Translations under genes and position numbers: made by a program | Origin: Eubacteriales Family XIII. Incertae Sedis bacterium | Lineage (GTDB): Bacteria > Bacillota > Clostridia > Peptostreptococcales > Anaerovoracaceae | DNA length: 64,000 nucleotides | Direction of reading: 5' to 3' | Assembly: GCA_031274195.1 (NCBI GenBank) | Contig: JAISQM010000009.1 | Location: forward strand, 13,588-77,587 | Part shown: one piece after another, positions 19,754 to 54,375 of the stretch | Layout of the letters: each line of letters starts with the position of its first letter | Position numbering within the stretch: the first letter of the stretch is position 1 | Notes under the pieces: generated by a model | The model's database searches: none | The model's input: only the letters and a program-made list of their open reading frames with translations | What the model was told of the DNA's origin: nothing

Positions 19754-19866
19754 TTAAGCGCGATTATAGAGTAGTGTGTTGAAGCAGATTGTTCTTTTAA
19801 TAACATCCGTCCGGGATAACACTCTGTCTGTTATGATGCCGCAGTGTGTGGCGAGAAGGAGAAACT

Positions 19867-30788: not shown

Positions 30789-33494
30789 TTGAAAAGGAGA
30801 ATGGCAGTGAATCATTCTATGACGAAGAAAACGAATAAGAAGAATCGGTTGCGAAATCTCGTCATTTCGGCGATTGTGGTTGCGGCTGTCGTGATCGCGT
30901 ATGCGGTGCCGGGTCTCATTGAACGATCCAGCGCTCTGTGGAACGATGAGACCGCGGTTCACATCGATCCCTCCACGATCGAGAATGGGACGCTGATTAT
31001 CGGTACGCATCTGGTGCATATCAGCGCGCTCACTGATGATATTTACGAGATGGCGATCGAATCGGCCGGCGAATCCTCCCAGAGTCGGATCTATTACAAA
31101 TCCGAGCTGAACGACGGCGCGTGGTGCGATATCACGGAGGCAAATTCGCTCGCGGCGATATCCTCCGGTTATACGGATCCGACCGGGATGCAGCCACCCG
31201 TTGTGGCGAGCAACGACGATATCGCCGCATTGTTCTTCGAGTATCACACAAAATCGGACGGCATCACGTACGATTTACGCACAAACGCGGCGGTCAATAT
31301 TTTCGATACAAGCAATCCCTACGATTTGGAGTCCATGACCGAGCTTGAGCCGCTGAAAATGCAGTATGATCTGTATACGAATTCGCAGGCCGATACGGAC
31401 GATGGCGAAGAACGAATTGACCGGATCGATAAATTCTGGGCGACGAATGTTCGCTCGGCTGTGACGGACCGGGCGGATCAAAATATGTCTGCCCTGCAGC
31501 AGTATTTCCAGATCATCAGTCAGGAGGAGGAGGCCAAGGATCAAATGTCGGCGGTTCAGGGTGTCATGGGCGCCGTGGACGCTACGCGCCGCGCGGATGT
31601 GTTCTCGACGGTGGATCAGGCGCTGGGCGGCTTTATAGAAGAAATCGCGGGATACACGGAAGGCGGTCTGACCGACGCCGACCTTAAGAGTGCCTTAAAT
31701 GACAGTCTTGCGAATGTTCAGGTCTCGCTGAGCGAGCAAGAGGGCAAGCGCCTCGATGCCGGCGTTACGGTGCTTTCCTCCGTGCGGTTCGATGCCTCAA
31801 ACAGTTTGATCAGCAACGCCGCCGCTCAAAATTACGCGGCCTGCGATAAAGACGTATCGACGCTGACGGATCTGTCCAACATCGAAAACGGCTCTATTCT
31901 GAATCAGGCCTCGGAAGCGGAGTTGCTCAATACGACGCTCATTCCGAACGCGACCAACCGGTTGACACAGGGGCTTGAGGCGGGCGAGAACGCGCAGTAC
32001 AAAGCGGCGGTTTCCGCCAACTCCGCAGGCGCGACACTCAGAGGGATCGCTTCCGACAATCGTTCCACCCTAAATTCGTCGCGCGGCGAGCTCGAATCGT
32101 TCATCACCGCGTATACCAAGCGCATTGTGGCGGAGGATAGCATCACTTTCATTGATGAGCGTATCGACATGACGACGAGTTGGCTCGGACAGATTCCAAA
32201 CGATGCCTTTTTGTCGGATGCGGAGACGTGCGTAAACAGCCACATCGAATTCCTCAGCACGCTGAAACGCCAGATTGAAATAGCGCTCGGCGGCAGCGAG
32301 CTCGACCAATTGACGGAAGAAAAAGCGGCGCTTCAGACGGATTATCTGGCGGCGCTCGACGATAACGATCTGACGGGTGCCAAAGCCGCACAGGACCAAA
32401 TCGCGGACTTGGACGCGAAGATCGCAGCGGTTGAGAGTGAAACAAACGCGCAGATCTCGGATCTGGAGCAGCAGATTGCCGATCTCCAGGCTCAGATAAA
32501 TCAGACGAGCGATGCGGACGCGCTCGCGGCTCTGCAACGCGCGTTGGATCTGTTGAAAGCGCAATTGCGGGCGCTCTCGGCGACGCTGTCGCCGAATTCC
32601 GTCGGAAGTCTCGCGTCGTCCCTTCGCAGCAGCGCGTTGGGTATCATCGAGAACGGCGGCAATCTTACCGATCTCGATAATGCCATCGCATCTCTCGGGG
32701 AAATGATGGATCTGAATTTCAAGGTGATATTCCCCGCACTGAAGGATCTCTACGATGCGATGCAAAAGAAATACGCGCTCGAAGGCAATACCGCGTATGC
32801 CGATCAGATCAAGGCGGTAGAAGCGTTGATTATCAACAATCAGTCCGCTTACGACGCATCGTTGGCCGGCGGCAAGAGCGATTCGGACATAGGCGATATC
32901 GTCGGTGATTACTTCGATAATGCGGCCGCCGACGGGGCGGGACTCGGCGCGGGCACGGATACGGGAACGACCGGCTCGGGTCTCGGAAGTGCCGGAACCG
33001 GATCGTTGTCCGGCAAGGGTGCGATCGCGTACATCAACGCACTGAAGGAATATGCCGCCGCGACCGGCAGCGATACCGCTACGCAACTCATGAAAGCGGA
33101 AGCGCAGAAGCAGCTCGGACTCGGCAACAAGCTCGTATACAAACAGTTCGACAATCCGTCCGTGCAATATCTTCCTGTCACGGCGGTCAGCTACTGGTGC
33201 GGTCTGCGCTATGTGTGGAATCGCAACCTGAGCGAAGCGACGCTGACGCGCGGCACGGATTATTACGCGTTCACCATGTGGTCCGACACGGTGGTTCGCA
33301 GCCGAAACAAGGCCGATTCGGACAAGATGGACGCGATAACGGGCTTCCTTGGCGCCATTTACATTCCCGGTAGCTATACCGCCGCGACTTTCGAGTGCGA
33401 GCCCGTGTATTTGCCGGATTCCGATCTTGGCATCCTCATGAGCAAGGATATACAGGATACGTCGGATGAAATATTAGCATTGCTCATGCAATAG
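30789..33494 (+). CDS. N-terminally anchored long coiled-coil protein with a C-terminal copper-amine-oxidase-N-like (stalk) domain
   Basis: TM LVISAIVVAAVVIAYAV. A long heptad-like region (QISDLEQQIADLQAQINQ...LKAQLRALSATL), a Gly/Thr-rich linker, and a C-terminal YLPVTAVSYWCGLRYVWN...YIPGSY pattern. The start is uncertain (TTG 30789, ATG 30801 or GVG 30807). Confidence 0.55.
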   Translation: MKRRMAVNHSMTKKTNKKNRLRNLVISAIVVAAVVIAYAVPGLIERSSALWNDETAVHIDPSTIENGTLIIGTHLVHISALTDDIYEMAIESAGESSQSRIYYKSELNDGAWCDITEANSLAAISSGYTDPTGMQPPVVASNDDIAALFFEYHTKSDGITYDLRTNAAVNIFDTSNPYDLESMTELEPLKMQYDLYTNSQADTDDGEERIDRIDKFWATNVRSAVTDRADQNMSALQQYFQIISQEEEAKDQMSAVQGVMGAVDATRRADVFSTVDQALGGFIEEIAGYTEGGLTDADLKSALNDSLANVQVSLSEQEGKRLDAGVTVLSSVRFDASNSLISNAAAQNYAACDKDVSTLTDLSNIENGSILNQASEAELLNTTLIPNATNRLTQGLEAGENAQYKAAVSANSAGATLRGIASDNRSTLNSSRGELESFITAYTKRIVAEDSITFIDERIDMTTSWLGQIPNDAFLSDAETCVNSHIEFLSTLKRQIEIALGGSELDQLTEEKAALQTDYLAALDDNDLTGAKAAQDQIADLDAKIAAVESETNAQISDLEQQIADLQAQINQTSDADALAALQRALDLLKAQLRALSATLSPNSVGSLASSLRSSALGIIENGGNLTDLDNAIASLGEMMDLNFKVIFPALKDLYDAMQKKYALEGNTAYADQIKAVEALIINNQSAYDASLAGGKSDSDIGDIVGDYFDNAAADGAGLGAGTDTGTTGSGLGSAGTGSLSGKGAIAYINALKEYAAATGSDTATQLMKAEAQKQLGLGNKLVYKQFDNPSVQYLPVTAVSYWCGLRYVWNRNLSEATLTRGTDYYAFTMWSDTVVRSRNKADSDKMDAITGFLGAIYIPGSYTAATFECEPVYLPDSDLGILMSKDIQDTSDEILALLMQ

Positions 33495-33531: not shown

Positions 33532-34110
33532 ATGGCGGATTATTCAATCATATCGGATATCAGCGCACACATCGTGCGGACGCTCAGAGAGAAGATGTGC
33601 CCCGAGCCCATCCCCTCTCCGAACAACATCGATGTCTCGTCTCCGGCGGAGCAGGATGTTGACTACATTCTCGGTCTCTATCTCTACGATATCGCCGAGG
33701 AATTGAGCCTGACGACATCGCCCTTGGTCAGAGCCGGAGGGACGCGCCTGACGAAGCCGTCAAAGCCCTATGCGCTTTACTATATGCTGTTTATCAACGG
33801 TTCGTCGCAGATGGGACTGAAGGCGCATGACATCCAAAAGATCATCGGCCGGGCGGCGCAGATCGTCAATGACGGGAATGTGGTCGAACCGAGGGTCGTA
33901 CAACCGTGGCTCGAATTCGATGAGGCGCCGATCATAATTACACCGGCACGGATGCCGCTCGAGGAAAAAGTCCGCGTGTGGTCCGCGATCAATAAGCCGT
34001 ATCAGGTCAGCATGTTTTACAAAGTGGCACCCGTGATGCTGTCGAGCGAAGTCGTTGTGGATCCGCCGCGCGTAACGGAAGCCTTGTTCAATATCGATAT
34101 GGGGCAATAG
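33532..34110 (+). CDS. DUF4255 / Afp16(Pvc16)-like tail terminator-cap protein
   Basis: 192 aa. N-terminal ISDISAHIVRTLREKM... and ALYYMLFINGSS... match the DUF4255 pattern, and it sits directly upstream of the sheath as in many eCIS loci. Confidence 0.7.
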   Translation: MADYSIISDISAHIVRTLREKMCPEPIPSPNNIDVSSPAEQDVDYILGLYLYDIAEELSLTTSPLVRAGGTRLTKPSKPYALYYMLFINGSSQMGLKAHDIQKIIGRAAQIVNDGNVVEPRVVQPWLEFDEAPIIITPARMPLEEKVRVWSAINKPYQVSMFYKVAPVMLSSEVVVDPPRVTEALFNIDMGQ

Positions 34111-34129
34111 GAAAGGAAGGAGTGCAGTC

Positions 34130-34942
34130 ATGGCAGATGTGACAATAACGCATCGAATAGATTTGGCCGTTTCATTTGTTGACAACATCTCGGGCGCGCC
34201 CGCGCGCGGGCATGTGTTGTTGAGCAGGAACGGCGCAATCGTGCGTTATCTCATGAGTTCTGATGGGATTGCACTGTTTTCGGATGTCGGTCGCGAAGAC
34301 TTCGTTTTGGGCATAAACGTATCGGGCTATGAATATGAGGAGTTGCAGGTTGAATACGCAAATCTCGACGAGGGCTTTCCGCTGATAGAGGTATCGCTGA
34401 TTCCGCAGGACACGCTCGGCGACGTCTATACGACGATCGACGGTACGCTTTCCGGTCTTATCGCCGCGGATGCGGTGTGCGTCGAAAGAACCGTGTGGTC
34501 TGTTTTGAGCGTCGATCAACGCAAAAGGTTGCTGACGGTGGAGAGCCAATACAAGAGAGAGATAGGCGGGAAATCCTATGGCATCATCGCGAAGGACAAT
34601 GAGAGCTATGCTCCCATTGCAATTATTAAGAAGATATCATACGGTATATATAAGATAGACTCCGTGCCTACGGAAGATATATTGGGGTTGCGTTTGGCAT
34701 ATCGCGTGGCGGGTCGTGTCCGCGACGGGACGTGCTTGCTTCGGCTCCCGCACAGATCAGGAAACGCAAATTGGATCATTCGTGCGGAGACGGAATCGGG
34801 AAATACATTCCGGACATTCGACCCGAGCGAAGCCGAACTAAGCACGGCCGGCAGGCGAATCGGCATAAGCGACATCATGAGCCGAGCAGCGCCTACCGCG
34901 AAAAACACAGATAAACACGACGCGGAAATGAAAGGAGGATAG
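34130..34942 (+). CDS. Hypothetical protein (CIS-associated, beta-rich N-terminus)
   Basis: 270-aa ORF between the cap and sheath genes. No domain recognised. Confidence 0.45.
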   Translation: MADVTITHRIDLAVSFVDNISGAPARGHVLLSRNGAIVRYLMSSDGIALFSDVGREDFVLGINVSGYEYEELQVEYANLDEGFPLIEVSLIPQDTLGDVYTTIDGTLSGLIAADAVCVERTVWSVLSVDQRKRLLTVESQYKREIGGKSYGIIAKDNESYAPIAIIKKISYGIYKIDSVPTEDILGLRLAYRVAGRVRDGTCLLRLPHRSGNANWIIRAETESGNTFRTFDPSEAELSTAGRRIGISDIMSRAAPTAKNTDKHDAEMKGG

Positions 34943-35061
34943 CGTTGGGCAAACATAGAGAAGTATACGTTAAAACATGTTTACTATGTGCGACAGCACC
35001 AAGTTATATCGTAGTTGATTAGAAGGGAGGAAGGTTTGGATTTTTTCCAAACCGGACAATT

Positions 35062-44541: not shown

Positions 44542-44961
44542 ATGATGGAAGACAAAAGTAATTCTTTTCTGGGAAGCGGGATGAAATTTCCGCCACAGGC
44601 CAATAAAGCGACGGGGCGGTTCTCCGTTTCCGAGGGGGAACAGAGCGTGAAGGAGTCCGTGTATCTGATCATGATGACCGCCGTTGGAGAGCGGGAGCTT
44701 GCGCCGCACTTCGGCAGTAGGCTCACGCGTTACGCGTTCATGGACATCAACCTCACTCATTTGAGCATCATGCGCCGCGACATAGCCGAGCTCGTCATGA
44801 GTCAGGAACCCCGCATTTCGAATGCGGATGTGGAGATCGACGCGGACAGCAGAAATGACTGTTTGATTGTGAATATTCGGTATAGGGTGGCACAGACGAA
44901 TTCGGTGGACAATTTCGTATTCCCGTTCTACCTGAAAACCTCGGCGGAGGAGGAAGAATGA
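44542..44961 (+). CDS. Baseplate wedge protein gp25 / GPW family
   Basis: GSGMKFPPQ......SVKESVYLIMMTAVGERELAPHFGSRLTRYAF matches the GPW_gp25 signature. Confidence 0.85.
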   Translation: MMEDKSNSFLGSGMKFPPQANKATGRFSVSEGEQSVKESVYLIMMTAVGERELAPHFGSRLTRYAFMDINLTHLSIMRRDIAELVMSQEPRISNADVEIDADSRNDCLIVNIRYRVAQTNSVDNFVFPFYLKTSAEEEE

Positions 44962-47900
44962 AGCAGACGATACCATACAAGATTGATTCGCGCGTGAAGG
45001 AGGATCTCTACGCGCAAATTGAGGAGTTTGCCGCGTCCTATACGCCGGAATGGGTGTTCAGCCCGAACAATCCCGATCTGGGTTCCGTGATCGCGATGCT
45101 CTTTGCGGAGCAGCTTGAGGGCAGCATCGACCGCTTCAACAGCGTTATCGAAAAATACCGGGTGGAACTCGTCAACTTGCTGAATATCAGTCTTCTTCCT
45201 GCCTATCCGTCCGAGGGCATATGTGTCATGAATCCGTTGCAGGATACGATCCCCGGAATAGATGTACCGGCCGGCGTCAAGTTGCTCGGAGATAGCGAGC
45301 TTTCGGAAAATGCGATCATCTTCGAAACGCAGGAACCCTTGCATGTGACGAGCGCGCACATCAGCGATATCATCGAGGTTTCGGGTTGCTTTGGCAGAAT
45401 ATTGCCGATTCGCGGAGATGCCGCGCCGATTTATCCGACAGGCATACCCGCTCCGCCGCCGCCGGATGTCGAAACCGGAGACCAAACAGAGATACGTCTG
45501 TTTGATTTTGAGAAAAAGGGCATCGAAAGCAATTCCCTGCTTCTCTATCATGGGGATGTGTTTGATGTGCCGCCGGGTACGAGCGCAATGATAGAAGTGT
45601 TTTCGCCGGACGGCGCGCCGCTCGCGAAGGCGCTCGCGGACAGTGAACGATACCGATTTTCGTATTATGACGGAGAAGATTTCGCGGATTACAGCGAAGT
45701 GACAGCGCGCGAAAACGTCCTCTATCTGCGCCGCGAAGGGGAAGCCGAGAAGGTCTCCCTGCCCGACGGGCGCTTGTGCGATGTGGTTCGCATTGACGCG
45801 AATGGCATCGTGCGTGAGGATTTCGATATCGGACAGCTGTCGATTCATTCGAGCGCGGAGAATATCCCCGCCGATTTTATCAATAACAACGACAGCGATC
45901 TGCCGACAGACACCTGTATGCCATTTGGGGAAACAGCCTCCATCTTTGATGATTGCTATATCGGCAACGACAACATCTTTTCCCACGGCGGCGCGGAGGT
46001 GACGCTCCGATTCTCTCTTGATTTTCGCGAGAAATTGGTTACGTTCACGCCGGAGCAGGAGGAAAAGACGCTGAAGGTCGTCAAGCGCAAACCAAGGCGC
46101 ATCCAATTTACGACCGCGCATACGTGCATTGAGCGAATCGCGGTGGAATATTTCAACGGAATCGGATGGCGCAGATTGATCGACGATGCGCAGTGGACAT
46201 CGATTTTTTCCGGAGAGGTGTTCGGGGAGATCGAACTGAAATTCACGTGTCCCAATTCGTGGGAGCCGGTCAACATCGGTGCGAATACGGGTCGCTGCAT
46301 CCGCCTGCGCATAGAGAGTGCGGACAACTGTTATCTCCAGCCCTGCGTTCATCGCATGCCGGTGATCCACGGGCTTTCGATCTCGTATCGATATAACGAG
46401 AGCAAGACGAAGCCCGTTTATGCGGAACGAATCAGCGGTGCCGACAAAACGGACATCACAGACGCCCTGCTCCGCGCGGAAGCGGTCGCCGCTTTTCATC
46501 CGATCAAATATGTGGATAATTCGCTCTACATCGGCTTCAACAAGAAGGTAGAGGGAACTCCGCTGAGTCTGTACTTTGAAACGCGCGACAAAGTCAGCGG
46601 TCATGGGCCGGCTCTGCGCTTTGAGTATTCGACGCGCCGGGGATTTGGTGCCATGCGCGTCATAGACGAGACGTGCGGATTCTCAAAGAGCGGCGTGATT
46701 ATCATGGAATTCGGCGAGGATTTTTCCCGGCATGAGGTGGAAGGGCTCAATCGCTACTGGATACGCGTCACCGATGCGGACGGAGTCTTTGACGACCCAA
46801 ATCGGATGCGCCCCGTGATTACGAACATTTTGCCCAATGCCGTCACGATTCGCAACGAGCAGACGTTGGATGAGGAAGACTATTATATCGACGAAGCCAT
46901 GCCGAATATGGCGTTTGTGCTGACAGCCGACAATATTCTGTCGGCGGAGGTCTATGTCAACGAAATCAATTTGCCCCGCGCGGAGATTCAGCGTATGCTT
47001 ATGCGGTCTCCGGAGAATGTCAGGGTTACATATGATCGGCGCGGGGACATCAGCGAGTTCTATGTGCGTTGGCAGGAGGTCGAAAACTTCGACGCGTCGA
47101 CATCCATGGATCGGCATTATGTGATCGATCGCTTGCACAGCGCCATTTTGTTTGGAGACGGCGTGAATGTCCGCATTCCCGAGGCGTCCTCCGATCCCGC
47201 TTTCACGGTGAAGCTGAAGCGGTGCGACGGCAACAACGCGAACCTGATGGAGGGTGAGATCAACGGTATTCAGGATCGGATTTTGTATCTTGGAGATGTC
47301 TACAATCCTTTCGCGACAAGTGGCGGGCGGGATATGGAGAGCGTGAGCGCGGCGGTGGATCGCGGTGCCTGTATGCTCAATTCCGGCGGCCGTCTCGTCA
47401 GCGAAGCGGATTATGTGCGGGAGGCGGAGAACTTTTCGGACATGGTTGGCAGGGCGCATTGCATCATAGAGGAAGAAAACGAGGCACCCGGCTTGATGCG
47501 CAAGGTGCATATCTCCTTGCTGATGCGGGACTACGTGGAGGGCTCATGGTCGTTTGATAATATCCGCGATCGGCTCAAAAGCAGCATGTTGTGCAAGTGC
47601 GAAGCGACGCTTACGGCGGAGCATATCGAAATAACGGAACCGTTGTTTGTGACGATCAATGTAGATGTCTGGGTGTACACGAAGGATACAAAGCGCAGAT
47701 TTGAGATTGCGGCGCTGATTCGTGAAATGATCGCGGAGCGTCTTGAACCGCTGCCGAAGGAGGACAGCAACGGCAACCGTACACGGGGATGGTTTATAGG
47801 GGAATTGCCGACCGCGGAGCAGATCGACATCCTGCTGCACGGCATTCGAGAGAATATCTCAATCAAGCGGCTTTCCGCGACGGTCACCTATGTGGACGCC

Positions 47901-47990
47901 GACGGGATGCACACCTGTGAGCTGGGCGAATTGCAGAAACAGCCGTTTATGATCGGCATCAACGGACAGCACAAGGTTCATTTTGTTTAA
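44958..47990 (+). CDS. Large baseplate-J / gp6-like wedge protein
   Basis: ATGA overlap with the gp25 gene. N-terminal YTPEWVFSPNNPDLGSVIAMLFAEQLE is typical of putative baseplate assembly proteins. 1010 aa. Confidence 0.7.
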   Translation: MKQTIPYKIDSRVKEDLYAQIEEFAASYTPEWVFSPNNPDLGSVIAMLFAEQLEGSIDRFNSVIEKYRVELVNLLNISLLPAYPSEGICVMNPLQDTIPGIDVPAGVKLLGDSELSENAIIFETQEPLHVTSAHISDIIEVSGCFGRILPIRGDAAPIYPTGIPAPPPPDVETGDQTEIRLFDFEKKGIESNSLLLYHGDVFDVPPGTSAMIEVFSPDGAPLAKALADSERYRFSYYDGEDFADYSEVTARENVLYLRREGEAEKVSLPDGRLCDVVRIDANGIVREDFDIGQLSIHSSAENIPADFINNNDSDLPTDTCMPFGETASIFDDCYIGNDNIFSHGGAEVTLRFSLDFREKLVTFTPEQEEKTLKVVKRKPRRIQFTTAHTCIERIAVEYFNGIGWRRLIDDAQWTSIFSGEVFGEIELKFTCPNSWEPVNIGANTGRCIRLRIESADNCYLQPCVHRMPVIHGLSISYRYNESKTKPVYAERISGADKTDITDALLRAEAVAAFHPIKYVDNSLYIGFNKKVEGTPLSLYFETRDKVSGHGPALRFEYSTRRGFGAMRVIDETCGFSKSGVIIMEFGEDFSRHEVEGLNRYWIRVTDADGVFDDPNRMRPVITNILPNAVTIRNEQTLDEEDYYIDEAMPNMAFVLTADNILSAEVYVNEINLPRAEIQRMLMRSPENVRVTYDRRGDISEFYVRWQEVENFDASTSMDRHYVIDRLHSAILFGDGVNVRIPEASSDPAFTVKLKRCDGNNANLMEGEINGIQDRILYLGDVYNPFATSGGRDMESVSAAVDRGACMLNSGGRLVSEADYVREAENFSDMVGRAHCIIEEENEAPGLMRKVHISLLMRDYVEGSWSFDNIRDRLKSSMLCKCEATLTAEHIEITEPLFVTINVDVWVYTKDTKRRFEIAALIREMIAERLEPLPKEDSNGNRTRGWFIGELPTAEQIDILLHGIRENISIKRLSATVTYVDADGMHTCELGELQKQPFMIGINGQHKVHFV

Positions 47991-48016
47991 GGGGCCGATT
48001 CCAAAAGGAGGACACA

Positions 48017-50116
48017 TTGCTTGACAGTATAAATCTTGCAGACAAAACCTATGATGAAATTTTGACGGAAGCGATCGGGAAGATTCCGATGTATACGGAT
48101 GAATGGACGAATTTCAACATCTCCGATCCCGGCATCACAGTTCTTCAGAATCTCTCGATGTTTACGACGCTCATGCGCGAAAAGATCAACGACATCCCGG
48201 AGTTCGTACGGCTCGGCCTATTGTCGATGCTCGGATTTTTTCCCGGCGAATACGGCGCTTCGGAGGTGTTTTTGAACGCCGGCGGATTCGAGTCGCAGAT
48301 CACGCTGCCGCCCGGCGAAAAGCTCATGGCAGAGGACATCTGCTTTGAGGCGGACGGCGAGGTCACGCTCAACTCGTGGGGCGTGAAAGGGTTGTACTGC
48401 GAGAGCGATGGCGAGCTGCGGGATATCACGTATCTGCAGAGCGGTGCGTCACGTTCGGGCATCGCCGTGTTCGGCGTACCCGCTACCGTTGATGGCGAGT
48501 TTTACGTGCTGTTGGACGATATACCGGACGATCACGATCGGTTGATTCTGCTCGTGCGCGTCATGGATGAGGAAAGCCGCAATCCGTTCGGTGACTCCGA
48601 TCTGTCCCTCGCGGAGATGAAATGGCAGTTTTACACAAAGTCGGGCTGGGTAGATGTGGAGGCGATTGACGGGACGCGAGGTTTCCTTGAAAGCGGGTCG
48701 ATCAAGATCGCACTGAACGCTTCGGAGAAGGCACTTTGCGAGGTCGGCGGCACGGAAGGTTACGCGTTGCGCTGTATCCTCAAAAAGGAACACTACGACA
48801 TTTCGCCGCGGCTTCATTCCATCACCGCCAATGTATTCAAGGTGCGTCAAAAGGACAGCAAGATTTCAACGTCGTCCATGCGCGGGCGCGGCAAGGTCGT
48901 GTACCGCGACAGGGTTGGCATGAACGGCTATTACACGGTATTTTGCGACGAGGACGGTTCGGGTGTCTACCGCAAATATACGCCATTTGACGGAAAGAAT
49001 TCTCAGGGACGTTTCTACGAGGCGGCGCAGGAACCGGACGGCATTCGGATTCGTTTCAATCAGAAGCTTTTCGGTTTCGGCCCGGCGAAGGGCATGGATA
49101 CCGTGCGCATCATCGGCTGTGATGTGGTCAGCGCGGAACATCTGGTGCTCGGCCGGCTGATGGGTTATGACGATCAGATATTGCGCGTCGATGGGTTTGA
49201 TAATATTCTGCCGGATTGCTTCTGCGTCTTGGCCGAGGGACAGGATCGAGACGGGATTCCCACCTATCATTTTGTGAAGCCCGGCGACAAGGACGAACAC
49301 AGATTTTGCTATCGTGTCGCGACCGACGCTTCGGAGATACACATCAGCGATCCCGGCGGCATGGACGGCTTCCTGCTCCACATCGCGTCCTGCGCGGTTA
49401 CGGAGGGTGCGCGCGGCAATATTCGCGAGGGCACGGTATTTGAGCCGAAATTCATATCTGCCGAAGGCGCGCAGCCCGGTCTCAAGATCGAAAACGCCCT
49501 GCGCAGCCGCGGAGGCACGGAGAAGGAGAGCTCGGAACGGCTTCGCCTGCGTTTTCTCGCCGATCTGCGCGAGCCGACCGTGGCCGTTACGATCAGCGAT
49601 TATGAGTATATCACGCGGACCACGCCGGGATTGTGCATTCATAAGGTGAAGGCGGTGGCGAAGCCAGACGACAACCTTGTCCGCATCGCCGTCAAGCCCT
49701 ACGGCGAGGATGAGCGGCCGATGTTGTCGCCGCTTTATTCGGATATTATCATGCGGCGTCTCTGCGAGCGAAAGATGATCGGAACGAGGATCGATCTGTC
49801 CTCTCCCGTGTATGTTCCCATCGACGTTTGGGTGGTCGTATACGCGAAGGGCTACTATGAAAATGTCGATGAAATCATTGAAAAGTATCTGCGCGGCGAG
49901 CTTAACGGTCTGTCCGGGGAGATGCCGTTTGGCTCCACCATTTCCTACAATCAGATATATAAGGGGCTCGAGGCGCTTGAATGTATTGAAACGCTCTACA
50001 AATTCTCGATTTCGCCGCGAGACTGGAAATCGGCGCGGCCGGATGGCCCGGACATCATCATGGACGACGACACATTGTGCTATCCGGGAGAGCTTTCGAT
50101 TGAAATACGCGGATGA
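48017..50116 (+). CDS. Baseplate-J-like protein 2
   Basis: TTG start after AAAAGGAGGA. YDEILTEAIGKIPMYTDEWTNFNISDPGITVLQNLS is the canonical baseplate-J N-terminus. Confidence 0.8.
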   Translation: MLDSINLADKTYDEILTEAIGKIPMYTDEWTNFNISDPGITVLQNLSMFTTLMREKINDIPEFVRLGLLSMLGFFPGEYGASEVFLNAGGFESQITLPPGEKLMAEDICFEADGEVTLNSWGVKGLYCESDGELRDITYLQSGASRSGIAVFGVPATVDGEFYVLLDDIPDDHDRLILLVRVMDEESRNPFGDSDLSLAEMKWQFYTKSGWVDVEAIDGTRGFLESGSIKIALNASEKALCEVGGTEGYALRCILKKEHYDISPRLHSITANVFKVRQKDSKISTSSMRGRGKVVYRDRVGMNGYYTVFCDEDGSGVYRKYTPFDGKNSQGRFYEAAQEPDGIRIRFNQKLFGFGPAKGMDTVRIIGCDVVSAEHLVLGRLMGYDDQILRVDGFDNILPDCFCVLAEGQDRDGIPTYHFVKPGDKDEHRFCYRVATDASEIHISDPGGMDGFLLHIASCAVTEGARGNIREGTVFEPKFISAEGAQPGLKIENALRSRGGTEKESSERLRLRFLADLREPTVAVTISDYEYITRTTPGLCIHKVKAVAKPDDNLVRIAVKPYGEDERPMLSPLYSDIIMRRLCERKMIGTRIDLSSPVYVPIDVWVVVYAKGYYENVDEIIEKYLRGELNGLSGEMPFGSTISYNQIYKGLEALECIETLYKFSISPRDWKSARPDGPDIIMDDDTLCYPGELSIEIRG

Positions 50117-50173
50117 ATATCCTATGGTTAATCGAAACTATTAATACGCGGCTCCGAGGTGGGAGGAACATTT

Positions 50174-51277
50174 ATGGCTTATGAAATCAAAAAATACAGG
50201 ATCAGCGGCGCGAAGCTCCGGAGGGCTTTCCGTGACGCGTTCGATCTGACCGACGAGGGCGTCCTCGTTTCGGCGGGACATGGGCGGATTGCCGCGGTGT
50301 TTTTCGCCGCGCTTGACGGCGTAGAGGAAGGCTGTCCGTGGGGGCGCTTCGTGTTTGAGGCGACCGTCGGCGCGGATACGGTTTTTAATGTGAAAGCGAT
50401 CGCGTCAGACGACGCGCAGATCATCTATAACGGTGAAGCGGTCGATATGGACAAGGTGCTGAGCGATCCCGACATTTCCTCCGTGGAAAAGCTCAAGCTG
50501 TTTGAAAACGCGCCGGCGATGCGTTCCTCCGTATACAGCAATATGCTGTTGCACGGCTTGAACGGGCGGTATCTGTGGATATGCCTGACGGCGCAGGGCA
50601 GTGAGGCGTCGTTTTGCGACTTTCGCGCGTTTACGCCCGGAGATCGATTCCTGCGCACATTCCCGGAGGTATACCGTGAGTACGGCGGATTCTTCCATCG
50701 CTATTTATCCGTGTTCGTCTCGCTTTACGGAGATCTGGAGGAAGAAATCACGCACGCGCACAATCTGCTCAATTTGGATGTGTGTCCTGCGGAGTTGCTT
50801 CCGGTATACGCCTCATGGTTCGGCATCTCTTTCGACGGCGATTATATGGACGAATTGCAGTTGCGCGCTTTCCTGAAAAACGCGTATTCCCTGATTCGCA
50901 AAAAAGGTACGAAGGAGGCTCTGAAACAGCTCGTGGGCATCTTCGTGAAAGAACCGTTTTATATCATAGAGCACGCCGATGTGGCGAGCGGAGCGGAACA
51001 GGGGAACGGACGCGTGTTGGAATACCTGTACGGCGACGATCCGTACTCTTTCACGCTCATGCTGATGCGGAAGCCGGACGAAAGATTGCAGCTGCGCCTT
51101 TCGCGGCTTATCAACCAGTTCAAACCGCTGCGTATGAGTGCGCGGATACTGTTTGTTGAGGAACAATCCACGCTCGACAGCGGCGCGAATCTCGATGTGA
51201 ACGCATCCATCGTCAACCCGGAAGCCGGGGTGCTGAACGAAGGCGCAGCATTGGATGGAACGGATTATCTGAACTGA
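50174..51277 (+). CDS. Phage tail protein I-like baseplate component
   Basis: LLPVYASWFGISFDG...LRAFLKNAYSLIRKKGTKEALKQLV resembles the P2 gpI / phage-tail-protein domain. ATG 50174 follows GGGAGGA. Confidence 0.65.
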   Translation: MAYEIKKYRISGAKLRRAFRDAFDLTDEGVLVSAGHGRIAAVFFAALDGVEEGCPWGRFVFEATVGADTVFNVKAIASDDAQIIYNGEAVDMDKVLSDPDISSVEKLKLFENAPAMRSSVYSNMLLHGLNGRYLWICLTAQGSEASFCDFRAFTPGDRFLRTFPEVYREYGGFFHRYLSVFVSLYGDLEEEITHAHNLLNLDVCPAELLPVYASWFGISFDGDYMDELQLRAFLKNAYSLIRKKGTKEALKQLVGIFVKEPFYIIEHADVASGAEQGNGRVLEYLYGDDPYSFTLMLMRKPDERLQLRLSRLINQFKPLRMSARILFVEEQSTLDSGANLDVNASIVNPEAGVLNEGAALDGTDYLN

Positions 51278-51299
51278 TACGGAAAGAAAGGATCATCGC

Positions 51300-51524
51300 A
51301 TGGAGGAAGATAAAGGCCTAAAGCCCGCAGATAAACCCTCGAAGCGGAATGCGGACGACGACGATGTTGAGATCGATATCCGGATCGAAAGGCCGCACAC
51401 AGAGCCGATCGACCGTGCGGGCGACATCTTCGGACAGGATCGGGAAAAACGATTCGGCGGCATCAATACGGCATCCTCCGCATTGAGCAAGGGTGTCCTG
51501 TTCAAACCGCCGACCGAGGAATAG
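51300..51524 (+). CDS. Small acidic hypothetical protein
   Basis: 74-aa ORF (NADDDDVEIDIRIERP...) between the baseplate and ATPase genes. No domain recognised. Confidence 0.35.
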   Translation: MEEDKGLKPADKPSKRNADDDDVEIDIRIERPHTEPIDRAGDIFGQDREKRFGGINTASSALSKGVLFKPPTEE

Positions 51525-51565
51525 CGCGGCGCTTAACGAGTAACCACTATGATTGGAGGGAGTAG

Positions 51566-53890
51566 ATGAGTTTTTTTAAGGATGGCACGGAGAAAACCCC
51601 GTTTAAGAGTTATGATGAATACATATCGTTTCTCTTTGCTTGCGTAGACCGTCAGCTTCACGCGTATCTGAATTCACTGATGGACGTATTCGCCTCAAAG
51701 CAGGGCGGTTATAAGAATGTACTCTATCCCGACATCGAGGTCGCGCACGGACTGACCGCCAAGCACCTGTGGGATTTTTCACTGAAAAGCGGCAGCTCCC
51801 CCAAACCGGTCAGCGCCAAAGCGCCCGTTGCGGACGATGGCGACGCCGCTGCCGAGAATGAGCTCGACAACGATATCGTGAATTTGATGAGCGAGTTTTC
51901 CGGGGAGTTTGAACCGACATCCGATGCGGTGAGCGTCGACATGAGCCAATCCCCGCAGGAGCTGATGGCGCAGATCAAAGAGCGCGCGGATATGACGGAT
52001 CCGGCCGCCGTGCCGATGCCGATGTACGAGCTGTTTAAGGCATCGGCGTTTTCGGATTTCACGATGTTTTGCTTCGCCTGCGCGATTCTTTCGTCCATGC
52101 AGACCGGCTATGCGTCGATCTTTCAGGTGATCGGGCAGAACGGCAATCTATCTTCGCCCACCTTCGAGTCGGCGGCGCGCGCCTATTATGGGACGGATTT
52201 CTCCATCACGAACGCCGCGGGTCCCATGTCGGAAGCGCTCGAAAAACTACAGCCGTTGTTCGATCTGCGTGTCAACAGCGCCATGCCGTTTTCGACGCAG
52301 ATATCCCCCGACAAACGCCTGATGGACTTCCTTTTCGGCACGAATGCGCGCCGGACGGATGAAACCTATCGCCGGTTCCTGAAATTGATTACGGACGATA
52401 AGGAGCTGGAACCGCTGATTGCGAACAAGGAGCAGCTCGATTCGATAAACATCGCGTATGAGGATGGATTCCGCCTGTTCTCCCTCTACGGGGACGAGGG
52501 CAGCGGCCGCAAATTCACCATTCAGCATTTTTGCAAGAACCGCGGAACGGAGTGCGTCAGCTTGGATTGCGGCAAGCTCTTTTCCTACGACTTCGCCTTT
52601 GTCGAAAAGGCGCTGTGGGCGCTAAACCGCGAATGTATTCTGCTCAACGCCTGTTGCAGTCTCGACAATCTGTCCTACCGCGAGGAAGAGAAAGAAAAAT
52701 TCTTCGGATATGTGGATCTCGCGTTCGGCAAGCTCACGGAGGGCGGCGTCGCCGTCTTTGCGCTGAGCCGCGACAAGATGCCGATGAAAGAGATGACGAC
52801 CCTCGAATATTCGCAGGTGGAATTGCCGACGCCCAACAACGGAGAGCGTGAATTGCTCTGGAATCATTACGCGAAAGGCTATGAATTCGACGACGATGTC
52901 GATCTGACTGAAATGGCCGTGAAATTCCTGTTTACCGCCGGAAAGATCAAGAGCGCGCTGCGCATGGCAAAAAGTCTTTCCCTGATGAAAAAGGAGACGA
53001 AGGTCGCCAGACTCACGCTTTTTGAAGCATGTTACAATCAGATGAGCCACGAATTGACGCAGAAAGCCACGAAGATCAAGGCGAACTACACGTGGGACGA
53101 TATCGTGATGTCGCCCGATCAGCGTCAGGCGCTCGAATACGCCTGCGATCAGATGCGCTACCGCAAAACGGTGTACGAGGATTGGGATTACAACCGGAAG
53201 TATCCGTATGGTCGCGGTCTGTCGGTCTTGCTGTTCGGAGCACCCGGAACGGGTAAATCCATGTGCGCGCAGGTGCTCGCCAACGCGCTGAACCTTGAGC
53301 TTTACCGCGTGGACCTCTCGAAGGTCGTCGACAAGTATGTGGGCGAAACGGAGAAAAGCATCTCCATGATCTTCCGCGAGGCGAAGAAGTGCAATGTCGT
53401 CCTCTTTTTCGATGAGTGCGATACGCTTTTTGCGAAACGCTCGGACGATGGCGGCAGCAACCAATCCAGCAACAATAATAAGACGGCGCTCCTTCTTCAG
53501 GAAGTGGAAGCCTACGACGGCGTATCCGTGTTGGCGACCAACTACAAGCACAACATCGATCCGGCGTTTTTCCGCCGTATGAAGTTCATCGTCGAGTTCC
53601 AATTCCCGGATGTCCAGACGCGGAAAATCCTGTGGGACGCGACGATTCCCAAGAATACGCCGTTGAATGAGGATGTCGATATCGACTTTCTCGCGGAGCG
53701 GTTTGAGTTCGTCGGAGGTAATATCAAGAACTGCATCCTGAATGCGGCCTTCCTCGCTGCGGGAGACCCGGACGCGAAGGGTGAAGTTCACATGAAACAT
53801 TATCTGCAGGCGATACGCTACGAATTCGTAAAGACGGGAAAGGTGTTTACGCGCGCCGACTTCGAACCGTATGCCGAGTTGATTTTATAA
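51566..53890 (+). CDS. AAA+ ATPase (Afp15/Pvc15-like)
   Basis: C-terminal AAA module with Walker A LLFGAPGTGKSMCAQ, Walker B VVLFFDECD and VLATNYKHNIDPAFFRRM, plus a long N-terminal extension as in eCIS ATPases. Confidence 0.85.
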   Translation: MSFFKDGTEKTPFKSYDEYISFLFACVDRQLHAYLNSLMDVFASKQGGYKNVLYPDIEVAHGLTAKHLWDFSLKSGSSPKPVSAKAPVADDGDAAAENELDNDIVNLMSEFSGEFEPTSDAVSVDMSQSPQELMAQIKERADMTDPAAVPMPMYELFKASAFSDFTMFCFACAILSSMQTGYASIFQVIGQNGNLSSPTFESAARAYYGTDFSITNAAGPMSEALEKLQPLFDLRVNSAMPFSTQISPDKRLMDFLFGTNARRTDETYRRFLKLITDDKELEPLIANKEQLDSINIAYEDGFRLFSLYGDEGSGRKFTIQHFCKNRGTECVSLDCGKLFSYDFAFVEKALWALNRECILLNACCSLDNLSYREEEKEKFFGYVDLAFGKLTEGGVAVFALSRDKMPMKEMTTLEYSQVELPTPNNGERELLWNHYAKGYEFDDDVDLTEMAVKFLFTAGKIKSALRMAKSLSLMKKETKVARLTLFEACYNQMSHELTQKATKIKANYTWDDIVMSPDQRQALEYACDQMRYRKTVYEDWDYNRKYPYGRGLSVLLFGAPGTGKSMCAQVLANALNLELYRVDLSKVVDKYVGETEKSISMIFREAKKCNVVLFFDECDTLFAKRSDDGGSNQSSNNNKTALLLQEVEAYDGVSVLATNYKHNIDPAFFRRMKFIVEFQFPDVQTRKILWDATIPKNTPLNEDVDIDFLAERFEFVGGNIKNCILNAAFLAAGDPDAKGEVHMKHYLQAIRYEFVKTGKVFTRADFEPYAELIL

Positions 53891-53908
53891 GCTGAGAAAG
53901 GAATGTGA

Positions 53909-54295
53909 ATGTCAATATGCGTATGCACCGGTGCCGGAATGCTCTGCTCCTTTGGCATGGCGCCCTCCACCTTGGTCGTGACATCCAATTCGAAGGTTTT
54001 GGCGCCCGCGCCGGTTGCGACAATTATGGATAAGAATCCGATGGTAAATGTGCCGCCGTTCGGCATGTGTACCTCATTGGCCAATCCGGCCGTCGCCTCC
54101 GCCACAGCCGCTGCGCTCGGCGTCCTCACACCGCAGCCGTGTGTGCCGGGACTCGCGGCGCCGTGGGCGCCCGGAAGCCCAAAGGTTCTCATCGGTTCGT
54201 ATCCGGCGCTGTCCAATACTTCCAAGCTGACCTGTTCCTACGGAGGCATTATTTCGATAACGTCGCCGGGTCAAACGAAATTTCTTGTACCATAA
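53909..54295 (+). CDS. DUF4280 PAAR-like spike-tip protein
   Basis: The pattern MSICVCTGAGMLCSFGMAPSTLVV...NVPPFGMCTSLANP...LTCSYGGIISI is characteristic of DUF4280. Confidence 0.8.
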   Translation: MSICVCTGAGMLCSFGMAPSTLVVTSNSKVLAPAPVATIMDKNPMVNVPPFGMCTSLANPAVASATAAALGVLTPQPCVPGLAAPWAPGSPKVLIGSYPALSNTSKLTCSYGGIISITSPGQTKFLVP

Positions 54296-54337: not shown

Positions 54338-54375
54338 ACTTCATGGCAGATATACGCGAGTATGGAGGAATGAGA

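What the first reader, a model, noticed from the sequence alone, without database searches (positions are those of the whole stretch)
33532..54295. Complete contractile injection system without phage head, integration or lysis genes
Sheath, two gp19-type tubes, gpD hub, gpV spike, gp25 and two baseplate-J proteins occur together with the three eCIS hallmarks. Those hallmarks are a DUF4255 (Afp16-like) cap, an Afp15-like AAA+ ATPase and a DUF4280 PAAR-like tip, which distinguish eCIS from prophage tails, R-type tailocins and T6SS. Hub and spike are separate genes rather than a fused VgrG, and the cap gene comes first (cap-first gene order). Established surveys report such loci as comparatively uncommon in Firmicutes, so a complete, apparently intact example with novel flanking modules deserves attention.
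Basis: partly seen in the sequence, partly recalled or inferred. Interest (0 to 1): 0.7.

Follow-up and report, generated by a model that had tools for sequence, protein, structure and literature searches.

The report
Clostridial contractile injection system with envelope module
The window holds a complete, non-phage contractile "syringe" gene cluster from a gut Clostridia genome. It is always accompanied in relatives by six membrane and cell-wall proteins, one of them TolC-like, so it may fire while docked to the cell envelope rather than as a free particle.

Summary
The gene content reported at 33532-54295 is real. Profile searches confirm the cap (Pvc16_N/DUF4255), sheath, four tube-family proteins, a split hub and spike, gp25, two baseplate-J/Cis11 proteins, a Cis12-like Tail_P2_I protein, an AAA+ ATPase and a DUF4280 tip. 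No ORF in the 64 kb matches a head, terminase, portal, integrase or lysis family, and the flanks are housekeeping genes.

The interpretation needs three corrections.
1. The cluster starts at 22410, not 33532. A Cis13-like fibre protein and five membrane or exported proteins sit directly upstream of the cap. They were complete in 37 of 37 related Clostridia loci with enough flank, and colinear with cap and sheath in 32 of 35.
2. The "eCIS hallmarks" show superfamily membership, not extracellular action. The closest solved sheaths come from a membrane-bound archaeal system and the cytoplasmic Streptomyces system.
3. A split hub/spike plus two baseplate-J genes is the published subtype IIa/IIc pattern. 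This lineage is also widespread in gut Oscillospiraceae, Lachnospiraceae and Family XIII, including cultured isolates.

The exported 683-aa protein is structurally TolC-like. I found no description of the envelope module in the papers I searched. Verdict: a new variant of a known kind, interest about 0.6.

The parts
22410..24212 (+). Cis13-like baseplate-periphery or fibre protein (600 aa, no TM segment). The N-terminal domain is Cis13-like, followed by a chain of Ig-like beta-sandwich domains.
   Evidence: NCBIfam NF053767 CIS13_fam 6.1e-23 over residues 12-144. AF2 model pLDDT 80. Foldseek hits to Ig-like domains and phage tail-fibre/Big2 proteins. Present in 46 of 53 loci at 37-68% identity.
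24202..25101 (+). Tail-anchored membrane protein (299 aa): about 250 aa predicted cytoplasmic, one C-terminal TM helix. No known family.
   Evidence: TM at 253-271 with a K/R-rich N-flank. TM conserved in 46 of 46 family members. No Pfam, NCBIfam or PDB hit. Syntenic in 46 loci.
25116..27455 (+). Polytopic membrane protein (779 aa): TM1, variable ectodomain, TM2-4, HAMP, then a conserved cytoplasmic domain of about 300 aa with a TPR-like C-terminus. Candidate signal transducer or docking platform.
   Evidence: TM segments. Profile against PDB matches the TM2+HAMP region of chemoreceptors at 4e-7. 117 representatives at E<=1e-30, with only the C-terminal half conserved. A 24%-identical member sits in the same block next to DUF4280, sheath and tube; two further distant members on short contigs have the same block neighbours.
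27459..28682 (+). Bitopic MORN-repeat protein (407 aa). Predicted N-in, with the repeats outside the membrane.
   Evidence: Pfam MORN 6.6e-13. TM at 70-88. Present in 53 of 53 loci.
28679..30730 (+). Exported TolC-like protein (683 aa): signal peptide or anchor (AYA|A), TolC-type long helical hairpins at residues ~100-450, and a C-terminal beta-sandwich region at 484-679. The model has only 2-4-residue strands where TolC has its barrel strands.
   Evidence: Homologs are named 'TolC family protein' and carry PF02321. AF2 pLDDT 82. The first 43 Foldseek PDB hits are all outer-membrane factors (TolC, OprM, CusC and relatives), best E 2.8e-10, TM 0.5-0.58 on target length. Sequence-only evidence is weak.
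30789..33494 (+). Bitopic coiled-coil protein (901 aa). Predicted N-in, with a large extracytoplasmic part.
   Evidence: TM at 26-44 after six K/R residues. Only coiled-coil hits. The ortholog in L056 has a faint Cu_amine_oxidN1 hit. Present in 47 loci.
33532..34110 (+). Cap (Cis16/Afp16-like).
   Evidence: Pvc16_N 1.3e-28. 64-85% identical in 39 loci.
34130..34942 (+). Conserved 270-aa protein of unknown role between the cap and sheath.
   Evidence: No family hit. Syntenic in 39 loci.
35062..36768 (+). Contractile sheath (Cis2).
   Evidence: Pfam. PDB matches: 9ezm (Halogeometricum Cis2) 1.8e-113, and Streptomyces 8bky/8bl4 at 1e-90 to 1e-93. Best phage sheath is 32% identical.
36823..37377 (+). 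Inner tube protein (Cis1-type).
   Evidence: T4_gp19 1.9e-29. TIGR02241 3e-28.
37452..37814 (+). Conserved 120-aa protein with a C-terminal zinc-ribbon-like motif. Role unknown.
   Evidence: Orthologs of 120 aa at the same position in L001, L002 and L056. 66-67% identity.
37847..38017 (+).
   Evidence: PF20546 1.6e-12. Same position in L002.
38050..38556 (+). Second, divergent tube-family protein.
   Evidence: T4_gp19 6.8e-5, below the gathering score. TIGR02241 1.3e-5.
38584..41010 (+). Acidic 808-aa protein. Candidate tape-measure or tube-lumen protein, inferred from position only.
   Evidence: No hits. Orthologs of 826 and 1025 aa at the same position.
41048..42436 (+). Two CIS_tube-family proteins (tube initiator or adaptor layers, Cis5/Cis7-like): 41048-41758 and 41774-42436.
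   Evidence: PF19266 7.3e-15 and 9.6e-17.
42486..43703 (+). gp27/gpD-type hub (Cis8a).
   Evidence: NCBIfam VgrG_rel 1.3e-10. Weak YQBQ 5e-5. No PDB sequence hit.
43710..44522 (+). gp5/gpV-type spike (Cis8b).
   Evidence: Phage_base_V 2.9e-21.
44542..44961 (+). gp25-like sheath initiator (Cis9).
   Evidence: GPW_gp25 2.7e-16.
44958..50116 (+). Two baseplate-J/gp6-like wedge proteins (Cis11a at 44958-47990, Cis11b at 48017-50116).
   Evidence: TIGR02243 4.6e-25 and 5.6e-21. Baseplate_J 0.012 and 1e-6. 9gtp_1K 5e-9.
50159..51277 (+). Cis12-like / Tail_P2_I baseplate protein.
   Evidence: Tail_P2_I 1.6e-10. CIS12_fam 1.1e-17 and TIGR02242 2e-15.
51300..51524 (+). Small acidic 74-aa protein, conserved in some loci.
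   Evidence: tblastn hits in 5 loci at 39-53% identity.
51566..53890 (+). Cdc48/VCP-type AAA+ ATPase (Cis15/Afp15-like by context).
   Evidence: AAA 1.8e-27. Best PDB matches are AFG2, VAT and Cdc48 D2 domains at ~1e-38. Orthologs at 58-71% identity lie within 10 kb of the block in 19 loci, at variable position and strand.
53909..54295 (+). DUF4280 PAAR-like spike tip (Cis10).
   Evidence: PF14107 3.9e-33. In most relatives it sits just before the sheath.
54343..58227 (+). Probable regulators: STAS protein (54343-54675), GNAT (54696-55628), and a dCache-HAMP-PP2C(SpoIIE)-HATPase_c_2 sensor phosphatase/kinase (55585-58227).
   Evidence: Pfam. Homologous GNAT+PP2C pair next to the block in L010, PP2C-HATPase in L021, stand-alone HATPase_c_2 in L024 and L042. 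Functional link is inferred.
16512..22337 (+). Two of three paralogous pairs of 'GNAT-like ~290 aa + large charged protein' (the third is at 10085-13213). Candidate variable cargo or effector modules. Membership in the system is inferred only.
   Evidence: Paralogy. Distant GNAT-like homologs beside CIS genes in L007, L022, L028, L031 and L053. The large partners have no homologs in the 53 loci.

Best explanation
The window encodes a chromosomal, phage-tail-derived contractile injection system (CIS) of the Afp/PVC-like superfamily. It belongs to lineage II, with the subtype IIa gene pattern, in a gut Clostridia ('Family XIII') genome.

The functional unit spans about 22410-54295, plus probable regulators to 58227. 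Its core comprises the cap, sheath, tube, tube adaptors, split hub and spike, DUF4280 tip, gp25, two Cis11 proteins, Cis12, a Cis13-like fibre and an AAA+ ATPase. These build a contractile tail-like particle in the cytoplasm.

What sets this lineage apart is a co-inherited envelope module placed between the Cis13-like gene and the cap gene:
- a tail-anchored cytoplasm-facing protein;
- a polytopic HAMP-containing transducer with a large cytoplasmic domain;
- three proteins whose bulk lies outside the membrane: a MORN-repeat protein, a TolC-like helical-barrel protein lacking a convincing membrane beta-barrel, and a long coiled-coil protein.

Proposed mechanism:
1. The baseplate docks, through the Cis13-like Ig-domain chain and Cis12, onto the cytoplasmic faces of the 299-aa and 779-aa membrane proteins.
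2. The exported proteins organise or open the cell-wall side.
3. Firing is gated by the HAMP transducer and possibly by the neighbouring STAS/PP2C/kinase switch.
4. The spike and tube are driven out through the envelope of a monoderm cell, in a T6SS-like, cell-associated mode.

Shown: gene identities, absence of phage genes, synteny, membrane topology predictions and the TolC-like fold. Inferred: docking, gating, direction of firing and the nature of the cargo.
For: - Core components were identified by Pfam and NCBIfam.
- No phage head, terminase, integrase or lysis families are present, and the flanks are housekeeping.
- The sheath is closest to the membrane-bound Halogeometricum system (9ezm, 1.8e-113) and the cytoplasmic Streptomyces CIS (8bky/8bl4). 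The Afp and PVC sheaths are much further (about 1e-45 to 1e-48), and real phages reach only 32% identity.
- Two afp11 copies, a split afp8, and afp10/12/13 present match the published IIa pattern.
- The six-gene block was complete in 37 of 37 loci with enough flank. It was colinear and co-stranded with cap, 270-aa gene and sheath in 32 of 35 loci, across Family XIII, Oscillospiraceae and Lachnospiraceae, at 22-68% identity.
- A 24%-identical 779-family member keeps the full arrangement. Two further distant members on short contigs show the same block neighbours, without CIS core genes in view.
- The first gene of the block is itself a CIS structural homolog (CIS13_fam 6e-23).
- TM segments are conserved across families and the positive-inside rule gives a coherent inside/outside split.
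- HAMP is detected in the 779-aa family.
- The TolC-like fold of the 683-aa protein has Foldseek E 2.8e-10 and probability 1.0, and all of the first 43 hits are outer-membrane factors. NCBI independently annotates homologs as 'TolC family protein'.
- Precedent exists: membrane adaptors are needed by the two characterised lineage II systems.
Against: - There is no experimental or structural evidence for any contact between the baseplate and the membrane proteins. Operon linkage alone does not prove a physical complex.
- A trimeric TolC-type tunnel (lumen about 2-3.5 nm, from general knowledge) is far too narrow for a CIS tube of about 8-9 nm. The TolC-like protein therefore cannot simply be the conduit unless it forms a different oligomer.
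- The Cis13-like protein looks like a tail fibre, and fibre-bearing CIS in Bacillota have been interpreted as extracellular (PMC12923769).
- The monoderm status of these uncultured Family XIII bacteria is assumed from taxonomy and from the LCP ligase genes in the window. It was not shown.
- The AF2 models are monomers with moderate pTM (0.46-0.60).
Confidence: 0.5

Rival explanations
1. It is a classical extracellular CIS. Particles assemble in the cytoplasm, are released by lysis of a subpopulation, bind target cells through the Cis13-like Ig-domain fibres and inject cargo. Under this reading the upstream membrane module serves release, export, wall remodelling or regulation rather than docking.
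For: All eCIS core families are present. The Cis13-like protein resembles phage tail fibres and Big2 proteins. Tail_P2_I-type adaptors with fibres are reported for Bacillota eCIS, and a Paenibacillus fibre was validated. eCIS-associated toxins from Ruminiclostridium and Paenibacillus have been tested.
Against: No holin, endolysin or other lysis gene is present in the window. The closest characterised relatives are not extracellular. This reading gives no reason for a HAMP transducer, a tail-anchored protein and three exported proteins to sit strictly colinear inside the structural operon across three families.
Confidence: 0.3
2. It is a Streptomyces-like intracellular CIS. Particles stay in the cytoplasm and, on a stress or developmental signal relayed by membrane proteins, fire into the producer's own membrane. 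This causes regulated cell death or lysis, possibly linked to sporulation or release of cell contents.
For: The Streptomyces CIS sheaths are the second-best solved matches. Firing of that system needs a membrane protein, CisA. A STAS / SpoIIE-type PP2C / RsbW-type kinase module recurs beside the cluster. No lysis genes and no obvious toxin domains are present.
Against: The locus follows the IIa pattern (two afp11 copies, split afp8, PAAR-like tip present), not the Streptomyces IId pattern. The envelope module has three large extracytoplasmic proteins, which self-directed firing does not require. No homology to CisA was tested.
Confidence: 0.15
3. It is a defective prophage tail or an R-type tailocin (diffocin-like bacteriocin) rather than an Afp/PVC-type CIS.
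For: Sheath, tube, baseplate and spike genes are shared with myophage tails. Clostridia do make contractile bacteriocins (diffocin, PMC10996793, listed).
Against: The cap (Pvc16_N), AAA+ ATPase, DUF4280 tip and CIS12/CIS13 family hits are present. There are no capsid, terminase, portal, integrase, holin or endolysin genes. The best phage sheath is only 32% identical. IMG/VR holds only two short fragments at 30-39% identity. The locus is stably syntenic in 51 species-level genomes within chromosomal context.
Confidence: 0.03

Closest known systems
Haloarchaeal clade IIa CIS / 'archaeal T6SS' of Halogeometricum borinquense (Zachs et al. 2024, PMC11566945; sheath PDB 9ezm)
   Same: Best solved sheath match (1.8e-113). 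Two cis11 genes, a split cis8a/b, and cis10, 12, 13, 15 and 16 are present. Structural genes are split into two groups by an intervening block of about 9 kb. A conserved membrane protein is encoded with the cluster.
   Different: The archaeal intervening region holds toxin-immunity pairs, not conserved envelope proteins. Its putative anchor is a single 6-TM protein, whereas here there are five different membrane or exported proteins, including HAMP, MORN and TolC-like ones. The host envelope is an S-layer archaeon there and a presumed monoderm bacterium here. No homology between the anchors was tested.
Streptomyces cytoplasmic CIS (subtype IId) with membrane adaptor CisA (PMC10066040; eLife 2025 PMC12237407; PDB 8bky, 9gtp)
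   Same: Gram-positive host. Sheath match about 1e-90 to 1e-93, and the Cis11 C-terminal region matches 9gtp_1K. Function there depends on a cluster-encoded bitopic membrane protein.
   Different: The IId pattern has a single afp11 and a fused afp8. CisA is one bitopic protein located downstream of the baseplate genes. Here a six-gene block lies upstream of the cap.
Afp / PVC / AlgoCIS (lineage I extracellular CIS)
   Same: Same superfamily and component set: cap, sheath, tube, gp25, baseplate J, AAA+ ATPase and PAAR-like tip.
   Different: The sheath match is much weaker (about 1e-45 to 1e-48). Those systems have a fused VgrG-like spike, a single afp11 and a recognisable tape measure, and no linked envelope module.
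Firmicutes eCIS loci in published surveys (Ruminiclostridium cellulolyticum H10, Paenibacillus; Geller 2021 PMC8213781; Nat Commun 2026 PMC12923769)
   Same: CIS of this superfamily in Bacillota are on record. They include Tail_P2_I-type fibre adaptors.
   Different: Neither genome appeared among the 51 loci that carry the 779-aa family. Those loci may therefore lack the envelope block, although the pattern-based scan could have missed them. This was not examined directly.
TolC / outer-membrane factor family (PF02321), for the 683-aa protein only
   Same: Two-fold repeated long helical hairpins. Foldseek E 2.8e-10 and TM about 0.5-0.58 to TolC, OprM and CusC.
   Different: Sequence similarity is marginal. 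The model has only 2-4-residue strands in place of the barrel strands, plus an extra C-terminal beta-sandwich region of about 200 aa. The host is presumed to lack an outer membrane. The gene neighbours are CIS genes, not an efflux pump.

Membership tests
Afp/PVC-like CIS superfamily ('eCIS' sensu Chen 2019 / Geller 2021) | Phage-type single-chain sheath plus gp19-type tube | tested here: met
   Pfam sheath and T4_gp19. PDB matches to CIS sheaths.
Afp/PVC-like CIS superfamily ('eCIS' sensu Chen 2019 / Geller 2021) | Baseplate core: gp25, baseplate J (Afp11), spike (Afp8) | tested here: met
Afp/PVC-like CIS superfamily ('eCIS' sensu Chen 2019 / Geller 2021) | Afp16-type cap (DUF4255/Pvc16_N) and Afp15-type AAA+ ATPase in the locus | tested here: met
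   Pvc16_N 1.3e-28 and AAA 1.8e-27. ATPase orthologs are linked in 19 related loci. Specific orthology to Afp15 was not tested by phylogeny.
Afp/PVC-like CIS superfamily ('eCIS' sensu Chen 2019 / Geller 2021) | No capsid, portal, terminase or T6SS membrane-complex genes | tested here: met
   Pfam on all larger ORFs of the window found none. Sequence beyond the 64 kb window was not examined.
Afp/PVC-like CIS superfamily ('eCIS' sensu Chen 2019 / Geller 2021) | Extracellular mode: particles released and acting free of the producer | not testable with these tools
   Needs EM of supernatants or cryo-ET. The closest characterised relatives are membrane-bound or cytoplasmic.
Subtype IIa (Chen 2019, PMC6899500) | Two afp11 copies | tested here: met
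   44958-47990 and 48017-50116, TIGR02243 4.6e-25 and 5.6e-21. Criterion.
Subtype IIa (Chen 2019, PMC6899500) | afp8 split into gp27-like and gp5-like ORFs | tested here: met
   VgrG_rel 1.3e-10 followed by Phage_base_V 2.9e-21.
Subtype IIa (Chen 2019, PMC6899500) | afp10 present, and divergent afp12/afp13 present (absent from most IIc and IId loci) | tested here: met
   DUF4280. CIS12_fam 1.1e-17. CIS13_fam 6.1e-23. The last two are partial-length matches below the curated cut-offs.
Subtype IIa (Chen 2019, PMC6899500) | Placement inside the IIa clade of the Afp11 tree | not tested
   No reference set of dbeCIS Afp11 sequences was available. The only indirect support is the best sheath match to a IIa system.
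Canonical T6SS (subtypes i-iii) | TssB/TssC two-protein sheath, TssJLM membrane complex, ClpV | tested here: not met
   The sheath is a single 568-aa phage-type protein. No T6SS Pfam family was hit in any ORF.
Prophage tail / R-type tailocin | Linked head and packaging genes (prophage) or a linked holin-endolysin cassette (tailocin) | tested here: not met
   None in the window. Best phage sheath 32%. No close IMG/VR relatives.
TolC / outer-membrane factor family (683-aa protein) | Alpha-helical tunnel fold built from two structural repeats | tested here: met
   AF2 model and Foldseek. PF02321 on many orthologs.
TolC / outer-membrane factor family (683-aa protein) | Four long amphipathic beta-strands per protomer forming an outer-membrane barrel | tested here: inconclusive
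   The monomer model shows only 2-4-residue strands at the corresponding loops. No oligomer model or experiment is available.
Streptomyces-type CIS with CisA | CisA homolog (bitopic, with a substrate-binding-like C-terminal domain) encoded downstream of the baseplate genes | not tested
The genes downstream of the baseplate here are the ATPase, DUF4280, STAS, GNAT and PP2C.

The most novel reading that the evidence does not exclude
The six-gene block is a dedicated trans-envelope docking and firing complex. That would make this the first T6SS-like, cell-anchored contractile secretion apparatus of monoderm Firmicutes. It would use a TolC-derived helical barrel in the cell wall and a HAMP transducer as trigger. 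It is widespread in gut Oscillospiraceae and Lachnospiraceae, and therefore a previously overlooked weapon or communication device of the animal gut microbiota.
Probability: 0.3. Interest if true: 0.85.

Novelty: new variant of a known kind. Interest (0 to 1): 0.6.

Why it matters
How contractile injection systems work in bacteria with a thick wall and no outer membrane is an open question. Only Streptomyces has been studied, and there the system fires inside the cell.

This lineage offers a conserved candidate envelope apparatus: HAMP transducer, tail-anchored protein, MORN protein, TolC-like protein and coiled-coil protein. It is encoded inside the structural operon, which makes the question directly testable.

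The lineage occurs in cultured gut anaerobes (Oscillibacter valericigenes An890, Pseudoflavonifractor phocaeensis An507, Bengtsoniella intestinalis BP47G, Agathobaculum). It is abundant in human, chicken, ruminant and termite gut metagenomes. A 2025 metagenome survey reported human-gut CIS as almost exclusively Bacteroidota (PMC12210884), so this lineage appears to have been missed there.

A TolC-fold protein working in a monoderm envelope would also be of independent interest.

Tried and rejected
- Promoter and terminator scan of 49800-60000: counts were at shuffle level, so it was uninformative. Two further scans failed on the size limit and were not repeated.
- Sequence or profile searches against PDB found nothing for the 600-aa (A8), 299-aa (A9), 405-aa hub and 808-aa proteins.
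- Profile comparison of the 600-aa family with the window's Cis11a, Cis11b and Cis12 showed no relationship. The Cis13 link came only from NCBIfam.
- I suspected from a motif that the cytoplasmic domain of the 779-aa protein was a degenerate nucleotide cyclase. Neither Pfam nor the PDB profile search supported this; only HAMP was detected.
- I considered that the TolC-like protein is the conduit for the tube. I rejected the simple version on size grounds (general knowledge of TolC and CIS tube diameters).
- Prophage and tailocin readings were rejected.
- Literature searches for a described Clostridial CIS or a CIS-linked TolC-like protein found none. The library is incomplete, so this is not proof of absence.
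- The GNAT+large-protein pairs are not conserved beside the cluster in relatives, so I did not count them as core parts.

Full report
**Observation.** ORF listing shows one uninterrupted run of + strand genes from 22410 to 58227.
- a Pvc16_N/DUF4255 cap;
- a phage-type sheath;
- one strong and one weak gp19-type tube protein;
- two further CIS_tube proteins;
- a gpV-type spike and gp25;
- one clear Baseplate_J protein and a Tail_P2_I protein;
- an AAA ATPase and a DUF4280 protein.

NCBIfam adds three assignments. The 405-aa protein before the spike is VgrG-related (1.3e-10). Both large baseplate proteins match TIGR02243 'putative baseplate assembly protein' (4.6e-25 and 5.6e-21). The Tail_P2_I protein matches CIS12_fam (1.1e-17). 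A small DUF6760 gene (37847-38017) had been overlooked.

Pfam on the remaining larger ORFs of the window found only housekeeping functions, with no phage head, packaging, integration or lysis family. These functions include tsaE/B/D, Rex, OGG, an ECF transporter, LCP ligases and 3-hydroxyacyl-CoA dehydrogenase. Two caveats apply: the hub is not a Phage_GPD match as such, and the second gp19 hit is below threshold.

**Origin and distribution.** The sheath is identical to a protein of a 'Clostridiales Family XIII' MAG on an 84-kb contig. All 120 listed sheath hits are at 65% identity or more. The hits that carry a name are from Family XIII, Oscillospiraceae, Lachnospiraceae, Agathobaculum and Hydrogeniiclostridium, and most sequences come from metagenome sources.

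**Relation to known systems.** Against solved structures, the best sheath match is 9ezm (1.8e-113), followed by 8bky/8bl4 (about 1e-90 to 1e-93). Afp and PVC sheaths are far weaker (about 1e-45 to 1e-48).
- 9ezm is Cis2 of Halogeometricum borinquense, a clade IIa system that is bound to the cytoplasmic membrane and acts by contact.
- 8bky/9gtp are from the cytoplasmic Streptomyces CIS, whose firing needs the membrane protein CisA.
- The best phage sheath is 32% identical, and IMG/VR holds only two short fragments.

Chen et al. 2019 state that subtypes IIa and IIc carry two afp11 copies and a split afp8. They also state that IIa and IIb keep divergent afp12/13. The window matches the IIa pattern.

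**The cluster extends upstream.** A hydropathy scan showed that five of the six genes immediately upstream of the cap encode membrane or exported proteins. Two sheath-anchored loci, from an Oscillospiraceae and a Lachnospiraceae genome, had the same genes in the same order, with 27-49% identity.

A scan of one genome per GTDB species with the 779-aa family found 51 loci, all in Clostridia. They include four cultured strains. tblastn synteny analysis gave these results:
- The six genes were complete in 37 of 37 loci with enough flank.
- The six genes plus cap, 270-aa gene and sheath were colinear on one strand in 32 of 35 loci.
- In the other three loci the block abuts DUF4280 and the sheath directly.
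- Gene sizes are tightly conserved (about 600, 285, 665-800, 406, 680 and 900 aa).

An exhaustive HMMER search found 117 cluster representatives of the 779-aa family at E<=1e-30. One member at 24% identity sits in the same block next to DUF4280, sheath and tube. Two other distant members on short contigs have the same block neighbours, with no CIS core genes in view.

**What the six proteins are.**
1. 22410-24212 (600 aa, soluble). The N-terminal 130 residues match CIS13_fam (6.1e-23). The AF2 model (pLDDT 80) is a chain of Ig-like sandwiches resembling phage fibre and Big2 proteins.
2. 24202-25101 (299 aa). It has a C-terminal TM anchor and matches no known family.
3. 25116-27455 (779 aa). 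It has a TM helix, a variable ectodomain, three further TM helices, a HAMP domain (profile against PDB 4e-7) and a conserved cytoplasmic domain.
4. 27459-28682 (407 aa). It has one TM helix and MORN repeats.
5. 28679-30730 (683 aa). It has a signal peptide or anchor. Many orthologs are annotated 'TolC family protein' and carry PF02321. The AF2 model (pLDDT 82) has TolC-type long helical hairpins, only vestigial strands at the barrel positions, and an extra C-terminal beta-sandwich region. The first 43 Foldseek PDB hits are all outer-membrane factors (best E 2.8e-10).
6. 30789-33494 (901 aa). It has an N-terminal TM helix and a long coiled coil.

TM segments are conserved across each family. 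Charge distribution places the bulk of proteins 4-6 outside the membrane and that of protein 2 inside.

**Mechanism.** The identities, the synteny and the predicted topology are shown. The following is inferred.
- The particle assembles in the cytoplasm.
- Its baseplate periphery (Cis12 and the Cis13-like protein) docks onto the cytoplasmic faces of proteins 2 and 3.
- Proteins 4-6 form the wall-side part of the complex.
- The HAMP protein, and perhaps the neighbouring STAS/GNAT/dCache-HAMP-PP2C-kinase module, gate firing. Parts of that module recur next to the block in L010, L021, L024 and L042.

I give this cell-associated model about 0.5. A classical released eCIS gets about 0.3, a Streptomyces-like self-directed system about 0.15, and a prophage or tailocin about 0.03.

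The main arguments against the preferred model are these. There is no interaction evidence. The Cis13-like protein looks like a fibre. A trimeric TolC tunnel is too narrow to pass a CIS tube.

**Variable flanks.** The slot upstream of the Cis13-like gene differs between lineages.
- In the window it holds paralogous pairs of a ~290-aa GNAT-like protein and a 535-762-aa charged protein.
- In the closest relatives it holds a giant ORF of 1782 aa (L003) or 2376+ aa (L004).
- In others it holds an OmpR-type regulator, a histidine kinase and the ATPase.

Distant homologs of the GNAT-like protein lie beside CIS genes in five other loci. This pattern fits a cargo or accessory slot, but that is inference only.

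**Novelty.** CIS loci in Firmicutes are already on record, and the core here is an ordinary lineage II CIS. I found no description of the conserved envelope block or of a CIS-linked TolC-like protein. A 2025 metagenome survey reported human-gut CIS as predominantly Bacteroidota. I rate the finding a new variant of a known kind, with interest 0.6.

Noticed in passing
window 10085-13213, 16512-19663, 19846-22337: Three paralogous gene pairs: a GNAT-like protein of 288-307 aa (58-77% identical to each other) followed, with touching or overlapping stop and start codons, by a large charged protein of 535-762 aa (28-34% identical, no Pfam hit). One pair is separated from the others by housekeeping genes (Rex, Asp23-like, OGG). 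Distant homologs of the GNAT-like protein sit beside CIS genes in L007, L022, L028, L031 and L053. These are possible effector/adaptor or toxin/immunity modules.
   Followed up: partly
window 54343-58227: A STAS protein, a GNAT and a dCache-HAMP-PP2C(SpoIIE)-HATPase_c_2 fusion lie directly after the DUF4280 gene. This is a partner-switching-type sensor module. Homologous pieces recur beside the CIS block in L010, L021, L024 and L042.
   Followed up: partly
L003 90-5438; L004 23-7153: In the two closest relatives, a giant ORF (1782 aa, and at least 2376 aa running off the locus) with no Pfam domain lies directly upstream of the Cis13-like gene on the same strand. The two ORFs are homologous to each other but not to anything in the window. 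They are candidate large effectors.
   Followed up: partly
L007 4220-5759; L024 3588-5546; L042 1453-3237: An OmpR-family response regulator and a small histidine kinase with no obvious sensor domain lie between the AAA+ ATPase and the Cis13-like gene in three lineages. They are absent from the window.
   Followed up: no
window 51566-54295 versus L002, L007, L014, L042: The ATPase and the DUF4280 tip gene are mobile within the cluster. They are at the 3' end in the window. In most relatives the ATPase lies upstream of the block (either strand) and DUF4280 lies just before the sheath.
   Followed up: yes
window 42627-44381 (-), 44928-46604 (-), 39460-41013 (-): Long antisense ORFs (517-584 aa) overlap the CIS genes. 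They are most likely non-coding shadows of the + strand genes, because the + strand ORFs carry the family hits.
   Followed up: no
window 4283-7025: A PIN-domain protein and a DUF4143/AAA_14 ATPase lie in a low-GC stretch (0.44 at 4001-6000) between housekeeping genes. This may be a small mobile or defence-related insertion unrelated to the CIS.
   Followed up: no
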